NCBI GenBank assembly: GCA_038087875.1 | Contig: CM075977.1 | Coordinates: 133,610,001-133,674,000 of the forward strand | DNA: 64,000 nucleotides | Direction of reading: 5' to 3' | DNA from: Malacoraja senta | Lineage: Eukaryota | Shown: positions 46,401 through 52,400 of the stretch, one piece after another | Numbering within the stretch: position 1 is the stretch's first letter | How the letters are laid out: every line of letters starts with the position of its first letter | Program-made: the position numbers

Positions 46401-49400
46401 GTTGACTCCACCACTGACCCATCGATGAAGACATGTTTGTAGATCTTCAGCCTTCCTCTTCCAAAGTCTATAAGTAGTTCCTTGGTTTTAGTGATGGTGA
46501 GAGCAAAGTTGTTGCGCTGGCACCATTCAGTCAGATGATCGATCTCATCCTATACTCTGACTCATCATTATCTGTAATTCTTCCAACAATGATATTGTCA
46601 TCGGCATATTTAAAGTTGTAACTCTGTCTGGCCTTGTAATCGTGGGTACAGAGTGAGTAGAGTAGGGGACTGAGCACACTGCCTTGAGGTGCCCCTGTAC
46701 TCAGGTTATTGAGGAGGAAGTGTTGTTGCCAATGTGTACCAATTGTGGTCTGTTGATGAAGTCGAGGATCCAGTTACGATAGGGATGCGCAGAGACCCAG
46801 TTTCCTGAGCTTGGTCACGTTTAGAGTGGATGATGGAGATGATGATGGTGTGGAACGCTGAGCTATTATTGATGAACAACTGCCATTCAGGCCCTCAGTA
46901 CCTCCATCTCAATGTTCTTCAAGAGACCCAACACCACCTCCTTAATATCAACATGCCCTAGAATATCAGCAAACTACCCCGAGATCTCACAAACCTCCCT
47001 GTCCTTCTCCTTGGAGAGTACTAATGCCAAGTACTTGTTTTGTAGCTCACCTAATTCATCTGGCTCCAGGTATAAATTCCCATTTAAGTCCTTGAGTGAT
47101 CCTATCCTCTCCCAAGTTACCCTTTTGTTTTTAGTGCATGTATAAAATACCTTGGGATTTTCTTCATTCCTACTCAAAATGACATTTCACGGCCCCTTGT
47201 AGCCCTCCTGGTTTGCCATTTAATTATTTCCTGCTTCTGGAGCAATCCTATACAATTTCAGCTTCCTAAACCGTACATTTGCTTCCTTTTATTTCTGACT
47301 TAATTTTTTAACGTCTCTTACTATACAAGGTTCCCGAACCTGGCCATCCTTGTCTGTCTTCCTCATGGGAAGAATCAAATACACAGGACAAGATTTTAAG
47401 AAGTCCCTTGTGCCAATAGGTGGGGAGCATTTCACGACATTCGTTGATTGTTGAGAGTGGTAGACGCTCAACATCGGGGGGGGGGGGGGGTAACCTTCAG
47501 GACAGTTGGGCACAGGACACATCATCAGTAGTGTACCCTTGCATCACTGGGTGTTTCGGCCTTTTAACACTATACACCCTCCACAAGGGCGGCCCGCTGC
47601 AGGATGATCAACCCTCAGCGCATGTCCCGTGTCAAACCGTCCCAAAGATTCACCCCGACATACTTGGGGCCCAGCATGGGTCTTTCCGCTTGAGCCAAAT
47701 CCACCGGCTGCTTCTTTCAGCCGCCTCTGAGAGTGATCTTATGGTCTTCCGCAGAGCCTGACCGTGGATTCCAAGCTCCTTCAGCAGTCTGATGGTAGAT
47801 GACGCAACAAATCCTCTGCATCCCACTTCAACTGGATAGACTTTGGTGTTCCAGCCACGCTGCGTTGCCTCTGCTGCAAGCTCTGCGTAGCGCAGCTTCT
47901 TACGCTCATAGGCCTCCTCAACAGAGTTCTCCCATGGAACTGTGAGCTCTATGATGTAAGCAGTCTTCTGTGAAGGGGACCAGAACACCAAGTCTGGCCT
48001 GAGGGTGGTGGAAGCAATTTCAGGTGGAAAAATTAGTTGTCGGCCGATGTCCGCCAGCATCCTCCCAGTCACGGGCCCTGCATTGGCTTCCTTCTTCTGA
48101 TCTGGTGGAAGGAAGTTTAGAAGTTTTCTGTCCTTCTCGGACAAAGGTTATTACCCTTAGGGGAGGGTTGCTTGCTCTCGGAGGCAAGGAGTTGGTCGCA
48201 CACCGCCTGTTCTCAAGGGCTGATGCCAGCTTTTTAGTACCTGATTATGCCGCCACGTGTATCTCCCTTGCGTGAGGCTGGTCTTGCAGCCTACCATGAT
48301 GTGTTTGAGGGTCGCTGGAGTTGGGCAGATGGCACAGGTTGGATCCTCGCCGTACCACTGATGGAGGTTCTTTGGTGATGGAAGCACGTCATATGTCGCT
48401 CTGATGATGAAGCTGATCTTGCTTGCTTCCATTTCCCATAGTTCTTTCCAGCTGATCTTCCTCCGCTCCACACCTTCCCACTGCATCCATTGCCCCTGCT
48501 TGGCAAGAGAGACCGCCTTTGCACTTCTTGCGGCCTCCTCCTGTCGCCGCACCTCCTCAACCACCAACGTCCTCCGCTCTGATGTTGTGGCCTTTCGCCA
48601 AGTTGGTTTACTTGTCGTAAGGCCAAAGCCTCCTCTTCCCTGCTGGACTTGCCCCACTATGTCTTTGTGCCTCAGGGCTGATGAAGCTTGCTGTACTGCA
48701 TCAGATGGTGTCCACTTCCGGCCAGTTGCTAGGGGCGGCGCAACAGCACTGATGATCTTGTCTCTAGAGTCCCTCAGTGTCATCTGGAGTCTTACTTTAG
48801 AACACTTATATTCCTCTGTTAGACTAGTGAGAGGTAGTTCCAGGACCCCTTTGCCATAGAGGCCGATGTTAGTTAGACATCGTGGGACACCGAGCCATTT
48901 CTTCACGTATGAAGTTATGGTTCGCTCCATCTTCTCCACAGTTGTTATTGGGGCTTCATAAACGGTCAGTGGCCACATTGTCCGAGGAAGGAGTCCAAAC
49001 TGTAGGCACCAGAGCTTCAGTTTCCCAGGCAGTAGGGTCTGATTGATGTTCTCCAGTCCATTGACAATTTCTTGCCTTAGTTGTTGCACCTGCTCTTTGT
49101 CCTTGAGACTTGCGTTATACCATCTTCCCAGGCTTTTAACTGGCTGCTCAGACACTGTTGGTATTGGGTCGTCACCAATACAGAACCTTGTGTCTCTAAG
49201 CACCCCCTTGACTATGGAGATGCTTCGAGATTTACTTGGTTTGATTTTCATTCGGGCCCACTTGATGTTCTCCTGCAGCTTTCCAAGTAGCCGCTTGGTG
49301 CATGCTGCAGTAGTGGTTAGTGTTGTCATGTCGTCCATGTATGCCCTGATGGGTGGCAGACGGAGCCCAGCCCTGGTTCTTTCACTGCCCACCACCCATT

Positions 49401-52400
49401 TTGAGGCCCTGATGATGACTTCCATGGCCATTGTAAAGGCCAAGGGTGAGACTGTGCAGCCTGCCATGATGCCTACTTCCAAGCGCTGCCATGTTGTACT
49501 GAAGTCAGCTGTTGTGAAGCACAGCTGCAGGTCTTGGTAATATTTCTTGACCAGTGTGGTGATGAGCTCTGGTACATGGAAAAAGGCAAAAGATTCCCAA
49601 AGGAGTTCATGGGGAACTGAACCAAATGCATTGGCCAGATCGAGGAAGATCACATGTAGGTCTCTCTTGTCCTTCTTAGCTGCTTGGATCTGGTGCCAGA
49701 TCATGCTTGTATGCTCCAAGCAACCCGAAAATCCTGGAATTCCTGCTTTCTGTACAGATGTATCAATGTACTTGTTTGTTACCAGATAGGTGGACAGCCT
49801 TTGTGATACAATGCTAAAAAAGATTTTTCCCTCGACGTTGAGGAGACATATTGGCCGGAATTGGCTGATGTCTGACGAATCCTTTTCTTTAGGTATTAGC
49901 ACGCCGCCGGCCCTTCGCCAAGCCTTAGGTATTGTTTGCTTCTTCACACCACCCTCATGAGCTTCCATAGAAAGCGTAACACATCTGGTGCGTTCTTATA
50001 GAGCTTGTATGGTACTCCGTTTGGCCCCGGAGCTGAAGCTGCTCTTGCTCGCCGGACCGTGTTCTCCACCTCTTTCCATCTCGGAGGGCTGGTGTCCATG
50101 TTGAATTCAGGTGGTTGAATAGGCGGGATGTCATGTGGGATGACCAACTGCTCATGCCTTTTCGTGTCTTTGTGGGCCTTTTCCAGGTGTTCCTCCAATT
50201 CCTGTTTTGATGTTTTCAAAGTTCCACTTTTTCCTTTGCGAAGAGGTCTTTGATGAACTTGAAAGGGTCTTTATAGAACCGTGTTCTTGTGTGTTCTTTC
50301 TTCTTGCGAAGTTTCCTCAAGTTCTCTGCTTTTCGCAAGGTTGCCAATCGGTTCTTGATGTCCTCTTGGAGTAGCATGAGACCTTCTCTCTCTGCGTCAG
50401 TTGCTTTTTTCCATTGCTTTTTCAACTGTCTCCTCTCTCTGATTAGCCTCTCGATCTCCTGCTGCCTCCTGGACTTGATTGGTGTTGGTAATTTCTTTCC
50501 ACCTCTCCCTTTACTCACCCCAAACCGTTCTTCTCCATAGCTGTAGATTGTGTTGCCCATCCTTTCAAGCTTTTCCACTGCTGTGCCCGTTTGTTGCTCC
50601 AAGATATGTATAAGGTCACTGTTGACCGTCTCCCACTCTTTCTTTTCAACAGCCTTGGGCCATTTCACTCCAGGTTTGTGCCCTTTGATCTTTCCCTCCA
50701 ATGGAGGTCTTTGTAGTTGTTGCGTGGGCTCCTCCACCGGCATTTCTGTGCTTGTATCACCCTCTTCAGTGACATGGGTGCTGATGCTCTGCGAACTTTG
50801 GTTTGTGTCCCGTCGCTGTGCTTCACTCGACTGATTTGACTGGTTGCTTCGTAAGAAGTACTGGTCAATGCGAGGCCCATGTTTCTGCTCTCTCAAGCAC
50901 TTTTTCTTCCCTTGGTGGATCTTCAAGCCCTTCACTGATGTTAATTTCTCCCAACCACAGATGCACACCTGAAGTTTGTGTCCCGCAGCTGTTGTGGATG
51001 TCTCATGTGCCATGCTCTCCTTGTCAGTAGTCGTTTCCGTTCCTGGGTCTGTAACCGTGTTATCAATCGGTGAGCCATCTTCCGCCCCCGCTCTCGCAGG
51101 CTCTAGGGGTATTCTCTTTATTTTACTTTTAGTAGCATTTAGCGGGTGTCTCCAACTAGCTGAAACAGCGTTGGGGACTGCTGTCATGGGTAGCTAGCCC
51201 ATGACGGCCCCAGTGGGGTCTGTTCCCTCCTGTCAGCTGTCTCTCCAAGCTGTCACATGGACTTTCCCATGTTGTCAGCTGTCCTTTCACAGCAGTCACT
51301 GGACGAGTCCAGCTTCCTAAACCGTACATTTGCTTCCTTTTATTTCTGACTAAATTTGTAACGTCTCTTACTATACAAGGTTCCCGAACCTGGCCATCCT
51401 TGTCTGTCTTCCTCATGGGAATTTGTTGGTGATGAATTCTGACCAGCTGGCCTTAAAATACTCCCAAATATGTCAAATGTGGACATCCAATAACAGCTGC
51501 TCCCAAACTATTCTCCCCAGTCATTGCCTAATACTGCTGTATTTATCCTATTCCCCAAGTTGGTTCTTTCCCCTGAGGCCAAATCTTATCCTTATCCATA
51601 ACTACTTGAAAACTTATGGCATTCTGATCACTCCATAAATGGATGAACAGAGACATTTTTTAAAAATTGAGTGAGACCTGACAACTTTCTCCCCTGATCG
51701 AGAGATAATGCTGAAGTAACTCCAGGAGCATCTCTGGAGAGAAGGTGAATCTCTGGATAAAAAGGTGAATGAAGAATCTCCTTTACTCCAGAGGTGTTGC
51801 CTGATCCACTGAGTTACTCCAGCATTTTGTGTCTATCTGATACAAACCAGCTGCAGTTTCTTTCTACACAACTTCCTCCTTTGCTTCTTTTAATTGACCG
51901 AGATATATGGTATCTTGGCCGTGATTTATCAATTTTCAAAGAAAAATAAAATACTCCTTTTACTGTGGTAGGTAGGAAATAAACAGCATCTTAAAGGTTG
52001 AATAAGTTAATAAGTTCATAAGTGATAGGAACAGAATTAGGCCATTCATCCCATCACGTCTACTCGACCATCCAATAATGGTTGATTTATCTTCCCCTCT
52101 TATCCCCATTCTCCTGCCTTCTCCCTATAACCCCTGACACCTGTACTAATTTAATGGGAATGGGAAGCAGAAAGGTCTAGAGACAGAATTCCAGTTGAAG
52201 GCATGATTGCCTTAGGGGAATGATTAGAATCGAAGGTGTGAAGAGGGTTATGTGGGAACATCTCTCCCATGGTCTTCACTCTGCTTCTGACCGTGGACGT
52301 CATAAAGGCAGCTCTAGGGATGGAGCACCCTCTCCCCTGTAGTTTATTAAGTAATGGAGCTGCTCCTGCTGCCTCTGTTTCTGGCTGTGCTTGACCTCAA

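What the first reader, a model, noticed from the sequence alone, without database searches (positions are those of the whole stretch)
47259..51421. Exceptionally long (~112 bp) target-site duplication around the Hero element
Seen in the sequence: 47259-47371 and 51310-51421 are a direct repeat with only about three differences, all in one T-rich patch. The repeated DNA is continuous with the old CR1-like host sequence on both sides, so it is duplicated target rather than an LTR. Established knowledge: most non-LTR TSDs are under 30 bp, and duplications over 100 bp are a rarity known from the RLE-encoding R9 element of bdelloid rotifers. Inference: second-strand nicking occurred about 112 bp away, possibly a family property.
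Basis: partly seen in the sequence, partly recalled or inferred. Interest (0 to 1): 0.72.

Follow-up and report, generated by a model that had tools for sequence, protein, structure and literature searches.

The report
Long target duplication around a LINE
A dead jumping gene of the endonuclease-bearing LINE type sits between two copies of a 113-base piece of the older repeat it landed in, which means its two insertion cuts were unusually far apart, a rare but already documented outcome.

Summary
47259-47371 (113 nt) and 51310-51421 (112 nt) differ by two substitutions and one 1-nt gap, all inside an 8-nt T-rich patch. They abut both ends of a 3,938-nt insert (47372-51309, minus strand).

The insert is a decayed non-LTR retrotransposon. 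It has an RT whose best solved relatives are R2 proteins, a CCHC knuckle and a C-terminal PD..ExK-like domain. No AP-endonuclease domain was found. "Hero" could not be tested.

The flanks are one old L2/CR1-like LINE. Two protein anchors on either side of the insert lie 405 nt apart if one repeat copy is counted (292 with none, 517 with two). They lie 411 nt apart in an uninterrupted paralogue in the same window. The repeat is therefore duplicated target, not an LTR. Two real LTR elements in the window serve as contrast.

Most likely the element inserted by target-primed reverse transcription, with the second-strand break 113 nt from the first nick.

Only one copy exists in the window, and no eukaryotic collection was available. 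So a family habit (as in R9, 126 bp) cannot be told from a one-off. One-offs are documented for L1 and for nicking-deficient R2, and Dualen gives long variable duplications. The finding is real but of moderate interest.

The parts
51310..51421 (-). Upstream copy of the duplicated target (5' side of the element in its own orientation), 112 nt. It carries the 1-nt gap and 2 substitutions at 51352-51358.
47372..51309 (-). Inserted non-LTR retrotransposon, 3,938 nt, decayed.
51188..51309 (-). 5' untranslated region (122 nt) up to the first ATG of the long frame (51187-51185). It contains a hairpin with 8-nt arms at 51183-51190 / 51198-51205.
   Evidence: read
50216..51193 (-). N-terminal ORF piece (325 aa). 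No Pfam family and no usable Atlas hit. A frameshift lies in 50216-50270.
49944..50270 (-). Middle ORF piece (108 aa, second frame) leading into the RT. A second frameshift lies in 49944-49995.
48157..49995 (-). RT (Pfam RVT_1, E = 8.9e-24) followed by a CX2CX7HX4C knuckle. The best solved relatives are R2 proteins.
48148..48159 (-). Three in-frame TAA codons within four codons, between the knuckle and the endonuclease-like domain.
47650..48147 (-). C-terminal 165 aa with a PD..ExK-like motif (restriction-like endonuclease candidate). The stop codon is at 47650-47652.
47372..47649 (-). 3' untranslated region (278 nt), with no poly(A) or microsatellite tail. It contains a C15 run at 47476-47490.
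   Evidence: read
47259..47371 (-). Downstream copy of the duplicated target, 113 nt. It keeps one reading frame with the host sequence that follows.
51422..51640 (-). Host L2/CR1-like LINE upstream of the insertion. The end-of-AP-endonuclease anchor lies at 51632-51582.
46000..47258 (-). Host L2/CR1-like LINE downstream of the insertion. The linker anchor lies at 47177-47007 and an RT fragment at 46531-46773.

Best explanation
The 113-nt repeat is a true target-site duplication. It was made when a non-LTR retrotransposon with a C-terminal restriction-like endonuclease inserted, on the minus strand, into the linker between the endonuclease and RT regions of an older, already decayed L2/CR1-like LINE.

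Inferred mechanism (target-primed reverse transcription):
- The first nick cut the window's plus strand just after ...CATGGGAA, before TTTGTTGG.
- That 3' end primed cDNA synthesis from the RNA's 3' end. The 3' junction at 47371/47372 is sharp and has no tail.
- The second break cut the minus strand 113 nt away, after ...GGAAGCTG and before AAATTGTA. Its 3' end primed the sense strand.
- Both 3'-ended strands kept the 113-nt segment, and fill-in doubled it.

What is shown: the repeat, the exact abutment on both ends, the element's nature, and that the host needs one copy of the segment. What is inferred: the order and authorship of the nicks.

Within this explanation I put about 0.4-0.5 on a wide second-strand break being typical of this element's machinery. 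I put about 0.35-0.45 on a sporadic distant break used once. The element has since died: two frameshifts and three TAA codons. One duplicate picked up a clustered 3-change lesion in a T run. Judged by the host frame, that duplicate is probably the upstream copy.
For: - Repeat: 110 of 113 columns identical, and only two copies in 64 kb. Simulated sequences give exact repeats of at most 17 nt.
- The repeat abuts both ends of a single 3,938-nt element. Its RT matches RVT_1 (E = 8.9e-24). Its best solved relatives are R2 proteins (9nl3_A 1.7e-17, 9dou_A 2.5e-17), just ahead of L1 ORF2p at 2.5e-15.
- No AP-endonuclease domain was found in any of the 4 ORF pieces. The same library does find Exo_endo_phos in the neighbouring L2-like copy.
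- A CCHC knuckle and a PD..ExK-like motif are present. Foldseek rank 1 for the C-terminal model is R2Tg (9dou_A, E = 1.7e-3, 27% identity over 108 columns). Three more R2 chains lie at ranks 3, 5 and 19.
- Left host flank against the paralogue linker: local score 74 against shuffles 33.9 +/- 5.8, with 0 of 300 shuffles reaching it. tblastn E = 3.2e-4.
- Right host flank against the paralogue's endonuclease end: score 47 against 30.3 +/- 4.6, with 0 of 200 reaching it. tblastn E = 0.039.
- Anchor spacing is 411 nt in the paralogue. In the host it is 405 nt with one repeat copy, 517 with two and 292 with none (coordinates).
- A single decayed frame runs from the downstream copy into the host linker, and an open frame crosses the other border.
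- Contrast: for the 226-column repeat at 39530-39753 / 41725-41950, an uninterrupted paralogue joins the flanks with 12 nt between them. That repeat therefore belongs to its insert, which carries an integrase piece.
Against: - The repeated segment itself does not align significantly to the paralogue at protein level. In all 6 frame tests, 55 to 242 of 300 shuffles reached the score. That it is host coding sequence therefore rests on spacing and frame continuity, not on direct homology.
- The spacing test uses one distant paralogue only. A second copy at 32849-32706 has only one of the two anchors.
- The right-flank anchor is short (17 residues). The other 8 frame pairs were at chance level.
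- The host RT fragment scores below Pfam's gathering cut-off (23.8 against 29.6 bits).
- The endonuclease assignment is weak. phmmer found no nuclease. The model has mean pLDDT 56.9. None of the 500 Foldseek matches counted has E <= 0.001.
- No empty orthologous site, no reads and no second copy of the family could be examined.
Confidence: 0.85

Rival explanations
1. One-off event. The element normally makes short duplications or small deletions. Here its own second-strand nick failed or was pre-empted, and an unrelated break 113 nt away (repair, replication or transcription damage) served to prime the second strand.
For: Sporadic long duplications are documented.
- L1 duplications are usually 5-30 bp. 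Events over 100 bp never exceeded 10% of recovered events in HeLa cells, and rose to 57-91% in repair-deficient cells (PMC5223499, passages).
- R2 protein selectively crippled in second-strand nicking shifts from small deletions to duplications of about 1,000 bp (PMC13486585, abstract and passages).
- Only one copy of the family is available here.
- The two inferred nick contexts share no clear motif (read).
Against: Such events are a minority even in cultured cells. A single sampled copy that shows one is more expected if long duplications are common in the family. Nothing in the sequence points to a failed nick.
Confidence: 0.4
2. Family habit. This lineage's integration machinery places the second-strand nick about 110 nt away, or far away at variable distance, as R9 does at 126 bp or Dualen does at variable length.
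For: Among endonuclease-of-restriction-type LINEs, nick geometry differs by lineage.
- R2 nicks 2 bp upstream, and R9 gives a 126-bp duplication (PMC13486585).
- Utopia gives 0 or 20 bp (PMC4640811).
- More than half of Dualen-4b_cRei insertions come with duplications over 50 bp, median 900 bp (PMC9977147).
- The one copy seen here has clean junctions at both ends and looks full-length, with a 122-nt leader before the first ATG.
Against: This is 1 copy of 1, with no replication. EhSINE1, which its paper says uses the machinery of EhLINE1, has duplications of about 6-29 bp (PMC2996970); that EhLINE1 carries a restriction-like endonuclease is recalled. No paper reached by my searches reports Hero duplication lengths.
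Confidence: 0.4
3. The host already carried a tandem duplication of the 113-nt segment, and the element happened to insert exactly at the joint.
For: It cannot be excluded without an empty site. Tandem duplications do occur in decayed repeats.
Against: Both element ends would have to coincide to the base with the duplication joint. Host anchor spacing with two copies (517 nt) is 106 nt longer than in the paralogue (411 nt), while one copy gives 405 nt.
Confidence: 0.04
4. The repeats are terminal repeats of the insert itself (LTR-like), or an assembly artefact.
For: Two real LTR elements with 189- and 226-column terminal repeats lie in the same window, so such structures are common here. No reads were available to check the assembly.
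Against: The insert has a non-LTR RT, and Pfam found no integrase or other LTR-element domain in its 4 pieces. Without the repeat, the host anchors would be 292 nt apart against 411 nt. The host frame runs through the repeat borders. The two copies differ at three positions and are separated by a complete element. That is not the pattern of a collapsed or doubled haplotype joint.
Confidence: 0.05

Closest known systems
R9 of bdelloid rotifers (R2-derived; Gladyshev & Arkhipova 2009). The paper is not held; I know it here only through citing passages in PMC13486585 and PMC9977147.
   Same: A LINE of the restriction-like-endonuclease type flanked by a target duplication of similar size (126 bp against 113 bp), implying nicks more than 100 nt apart.
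   Different: R9 is rDNA-specific, and its long duplication is reported as a family feature. Here the target is a decayed L2/CR1-like LINE, only one copy was seen, and the clade differs (said to be Hero, untested).
Dualen-4b_cRei of Chlamydomonas (PMC9977147, passages)
   Same: Duplicated target flanks both sides of new LINE insertions and is far longer than usual. The element carries a restriction-like endonuclease.
   Different: Dualen also carries an AP endonuclease. Its duplications are variable, with a median of 900 bp. No AP-endonuclease domain was found here, and the duplication is 113 nt.
R2 protein with crippled second-strand nicking (PMC13486585, abstract and passages)
   Same: It shows how a restriction-like-endonuclease LINE can end up with a long duplication: the second-strand break is taken from elsewhere.
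   Different: That is an engineered mutant in human cells, with duplications of about 1,000 bp within rDNA. Wild-type R2 nicks 2 bp upstream and gives small deletions.
Sporadic long duplications of L1 (PMC5223499, passages)
   Same: Occasional events over 100 bp in a family that usually makes 5-30 bp. This is the model for the one-off rival.
   Different: L1 uses an AP endonuclease and a poly(A) tail. This element has neither.
Utopia, and EhLINE1 with its SINE (PMC4640811; PMC2996970)
   Same: Utopia is a restriction-like-endonuclease LINE by its paper. For EhLINE1 that is recalled. Both have measured duplications.
   Different: Their duplications are 0 or 20 bp (Utopia) and about 6-29 bp (EhSINE1), an order of magnitude shorter.

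Membership tests
Non-LTR retrotransposon of the R2 group (CRE, NeSL, R2, Hero, R4 as grouped in PMC3636483) | RT of non-LTR type | tested here: met
   Pfam RVT_1 E = 8.9e-24. All 10 PDB sequences matched at E <= 0.01 are R2 or L1 proteins, led by R2.
Non-LTR retrotransposon of the R2 group | PD-(D/E)XK endonuclease after the RT | tested here: inconclusive
   A PD..ExK-like motif was read. Foldseek rank 1 is R2Tg (E = 1.7e-3), but no match has E <= 0.001 and the model's pLDDT is 56.9. phmmer against PDB found no nuclease. The Atlas gave scores of 0.96 to unnamed eukaryotic clusters only.
Non-LTR retrotransposon of the R2 group | Cysteine-histidine knuckle between RT and endonuclease (feature recalled, not taken from a call) | tested here: met
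   CX2CX7HX4C read in the translation.
Non-LTR retrotransposon of the R2 group | No AP endonuclease N-terminal to the RT | tested here: met
   0 of 4 ORF pieces match Exo_endo_phos. The neighbouring L2-like copy does match (6.1e-11).
Non-LTR retrotransposon of the R2 group | Single ORF | tested here: inconclusive
   The coding region lies in three frames and has three TAA codons. This is consistent with one decayed ORF. The pieces were not joined.
Hero clade | Placement of the RT within the Hero clade in an RT phylogeny | not testable with these tools
   No Hero reference sequences were on hand.
Hero clade | Mostly non-site-specific insertion (PMC4640811; PMC3636483) | tested here: inconclusive
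   The one copy lies in a decayed L2/CR1-like LINE, not in rDNA or a microsatellite. n = 1.
Target-site duplication made by target-primed reverse transcription | Direct repeat abutting both ends of one element | tested here: met
[quoted passage not shown]
   Indirect, by paralogue spacing: 405 nt against 411 nt. The true empty site was not available.
R9-type programmed long duplication | The same long duplication in independent copies of the family | not testable with these tools
   1 copy in the window. No genome collection for eukaryotes.
R9-type programmed long duplication | rDNA target | tested here: not met
   The target is an L2/CR1-like LINE. Rfam found no rRNA in 46500-52200.
LTR retrotransposon | Terminal repeats belong to the element, with integrase and an LTR-type pol | tested here: not met
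   Pfam found only RVT_1, and no integrase or other LTR-element domain, in the 4 pieces. The host spacing needs one repeat copy. Compare the true LTR elements.

The most novel reading that the evidence does not exclude
This lineage of restriction-like-endonuclease LINEs (Hero, if the label holds) habitually breaks the second strand about 110 nt from the first nick. That would be a second, independent case after R9 of a programmed duplication over 100 bp, and the first in a non-site-specific element of an animal genome rich in L2/CR1 LINEs. It would mean that the second nicking subunit is positioned some ten helical turns away. Such a lineage would be a natural system for asking how the second nick is placed.
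Probability: 0.4. Interest if true: 0.6.

Novelty: new member of a known kind. Interest (0 to 1): 0.4.

Why it matters
How non-LTR retrotransposons make and place the second-strand break is still open. PMC13486585 names R9's 126-bp duplication as a case worth studying. A second lineage with a fixed break more than 100 nt away would give a comparative handle on the two-subunit nicking model. Long duplications also matter for genome evolution: they can copy functional sequence, and they favour later loss of the insert by recombination (PMC5223499). As it stands this is one well-documented insertion. Its value depends on whether other copies of the family behave the same way.

Tried and rejected
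- Other copies of the repeat or of the element in the window: none by blastn, tblastx or tblastn with the 4 ORF pieces. The only non-self hits were weak RT matches to L2-like copies.
- Direct paralogous empty site at DNA or tblastx level: none.
- Protein-level alignment of the repeat itself to the paralogue: at chance.
- Rfam on 46500-52200, looking for a 5' ribozyme or an RNA-gene target: one sub-threshold snoRNA match only (E = 0.96).
- Sequence search for the endonuclease in PDB: nothing, with the domain alone and with the knuckle added and the three stops read as X.
- Atlas on the N-terminal piece: no usable hit.
- Window-wide scan for other long flanking repeats: two pairs looked similar, at 8927/13087 and at 39530/41725. 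Both proved to be LTRs.
- Literature on Hero duplication lengths: searches listed no paper stating them. The passages I read state none either (PMC4640811, PMC9004415, PMC10294476, PMC13580325, PMC7650587, PMC3636483).
- Papers not held: Gladyshev & Arkhipova 2009, Kapitonov et al. 2009 and Aksoy et al. 1990. Repbase Reports and Kojima & Fujiwara 2004 were not seen. So 'not in print' cannot be claimed.
- A 49-bp duplication for SLACS/CRE elements is recalled only. I could not check it because the cap on papers was reached.
- A shared motif at the two inferred nick sites: none convincing by eye.
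Full report
**Observation.** I read the two stretches directly.
- The repeat finder reports them as two adjoining blocks offset by one base.
- blastn against the whole window gives one 113-column alignment at 97.3% and no third copy.
- Global alignment of 47259-47371 (113 nt) with 51310-51421 (112 nt) has 110 identical columns, two substitutions and one 1-nt gap.
- The shared exact blocks are 42 and 63 nt. All differences lie in 47301-47308 / 51352-51358.
- Twenty Markov simulations of the window gave longest exact repeats of 14-17 nt. 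Three random sites fall within 10 nt of each other with P = 0.017.

**What lies between.** The 3,938 nt from 47372 to 51309 carry one coding region on the minus strand, split over three frames.
- The pieces are 50216-51193, 49944-50270 and 48157-49995. The last continues in the same frame into 47650-48147 after three TAA codons within four codons.
- I searched the pieces one by one.
- The third piece matches Pfam RVT_1 (E = 8.9e-24). The other three match no family above cut-off.
- Against solved structures the RT piece matches 10 sequences at E <= 0.01, all R2 or L1 proteins. R2 proteins rank first (9nl3_A 1.7e-17, 9dou_A 2.5e-17), then L1 ORF2p at 2.5e-15.
- After the RT comes a CX2CX7HX4C knuckle, then a stretch with PD...E.T...K..RY. 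From memory, this is the layout of the linker and restriction-like endonuclease of R2-group elements.

**How well the endonuclease is supported.** Only weakly.
- phmmer finds no nuclease.
- A single-sequence AlphaFold model has mean pLDDT 56.9, with a strand-strand-helix-strand core.
- Foldseek against PDB has no match at E <= 0.001. Its first hit is the R2Tg protein (E = 1.7e-3, 27% identity over 108 columns). Three further R2 chains are at ranks 3, 5 and 19, among ribosomal proteins and viral cap-snatching nucleases.
- The ESM Atlas places the domain at 0.96 next to unnamed eukaryotic clusters. The few members with a known phylum are mostly Mollusca, Arthropoda or Echinodermata.
- No AP-endonuclease domain is found in the element. 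The same search finds one in the neighbouring L2-like copy.

**Other features of the element.**
- There is a 122-nt leader before the first ATG of the long frame.
- There is a 278-nt 3' untranslated region without poly(A) or microsatellite.
- Rfam finds no ribozyme.
- The element is therefore a decayed, apparently full-length non-LTR retrotransposon of the R2 group.
The remaining collections hold no eukaryotic genomes.

**Is the repeat target or element?** Both flanks belong to an older LINE on the minus strand.
- The left flank has an RT fragment (RVT_1 E = 4.2e-5, below the gathering score).
- From 47177 downward, the left flank aligns to the linker of another L2/CR1-like copy in the window. 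That copy's AP endonuclease is Pfam-supported (43388-44308). The local score is 74 against 33.9 +/- 5.8 in shuffles, with 0 of 300 reaching it. tblastn gives E = 3.2e-4.
- The right flank carries the end-of-endonuclease motif at 51632-51582. The score is 47 against 30.3 +/- 4.6, with 0 of 200 shuffles reaching it. The other 8 frame pairs were at chance. tblastn gives E = 0.039.
- In the paralogue these two anchors start 411 nt apart (43528 and 43117).
- In the host the distance is 211 + 81 = 292 nt without the repeat, 405 nt with one copy and 517 nt with both.
- One copy, and only one, restores the spacing.
- A single decayed frame runs from the downstream copy through the border into the host linker. 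An open frame crosses the other border.

**Against this reading.**
- The repeat itself does not align significantly to the paralogue at protein level. In six tests, 55-242 of 300 shuffles reached the score.
- Only one paralogue has both anchors.
- No DNA-level empty site exists in the window.

**A built-in contrast.** The window holds two other long flanking repeats.
- The pair at 8927-9115 / 13087-13268 bounds an element with integrase and RT.
- The pair at 39530-39753 / 41725-41950 bounds an integrase fragment inside an L2-like RT. An uninterrupted paralogue at 31894-32291 joins the host flanks with only 12 nt between them. There the repeat belongs to the insert, so it is an LTR.
- The 113-nt repeat behaves the opposite way.

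**Mechanism (inferred).** The element is sense on the minus strand, so its cDNA is the plus strand.
- The priming 3' end is therefore plus-strand position 47371. The first nick fell between ...CATGGGAA and TTTGTTGG of the unoccupied site.
- The second break fell on the minus strand between ...GGAAGCTG and AAATTGTA, 113 nt away.
- Both 3'-ended strands thus kept the segment, and fill-in doubled it.
- The junctions are clean. At the 5' junction there are only scattered matches, and the two nick contexts share no convincing motif.
- The downstream copy keeps the host frame, while the upstream copy has the 1-nt gap. The clustered lesion therefore probably arose in the upstream copy. Whether that happened during fill-in or later by slippage in the T run cannot be told.

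**Comparison with what is known.**
- PMC13486585 (abstract and passages) states that non-LTR elements typically make short duplications. R2 proteins nick the second strand 2 bp upstream through a recruited second subunit. R9 is associated with a 126-bp duplication. R2 protein crippled in second-strand nicking gives duplications of about 1,000 bp.
- PMC9977147 (passages) reports that more than half of new Dualen-4b_cRei insertions come with duplications over 50 bp, median 900 bp.
- PMC5223499 (passages) gives 5-30 bp as usual for L1. Events over 100 bp stayed under 10% in HeLa cells, and reached 57-91% in repair-deficient cells.
- Utopia makes 0 or 20 bp (PMC4640811). EhSINE1 makes about 6-29 bp (PMC2996970).
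Long duplications are rare, but they are known both as a lineage trait and as accidents.
- I found no statement on Hero duplication lengths (searches; passages). Supplements were closed. I therefore do not claim it is unpublished.

**Verdict.**
- It is a new instance of a known kind of event.
- Family trait (about 0.4) cannot be told from one-off (about 0.4) from a single copy. A survey of the family's other copies and an empty site would settle it.
- Nothing in the window was taken for human. The N run at 61411-61568 was left alone.

Noticed in passing
window 8927-13268 (minus strand): An LTR retrotransposon with terminal direct repeats at 8927-9115 and 13087-13268 (189-column alignment, 90.5%). 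Its ORFs match Integrase_H2C2, rve and RVT_1. The region is GC-rich (0.48-0.57).
   Followed up: partly
window 39530-41950: An internally deleted LTR element with 226-column terminal repeats (92.5% identical) and an integrase-core fragment on the plus strand. It is inserted into the RT of an L2/CR1-like LINE. An uninterrupted paralogue at 31894-32291 shows the host flanks only 12 nt apart.
   Followed up: partly
window 38857-44308 (minus strand), 31894-32849, 45066-45700: Several L2/CR1-like LINE copies of different ages. One has a Pfam-supported AP endonuclease (43388-44308). The 3' region at 45207-45637 resembles 46004-46420 at about 65%.
   Followed up: partly
window 48148-48159: Three TAA codons within four codons, exactly between the CCHC knuckle and the endonuclease-like domain of the inserted element. 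This is an odd cluster for random decay and is unexplained.
   Followed up: no
window 47476-47490 and 51183-51205: A C15 run (element strand) in the 3' untranslated region, and a hairpin with 8-nt arms just upstream of and overlapping the first ATG in the 5' leader. No Rfam family matched.
   Followed up: partly
window 52017-52133 / 52584-52700: An inverted repeat with 117-nt arms, 84% complementary and 450 nt apart, in the right flank. The arms also match 20133-20273 and 63132-63277, so it is probably a dispersed short repeat.
   Followed up: no
window 17792-17950; 59543-61250: An 11-nt tandem array (about 15 units), and a long purine-rich GA/G tract that ends near the N run at 61411-61568.
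   Followed up: no
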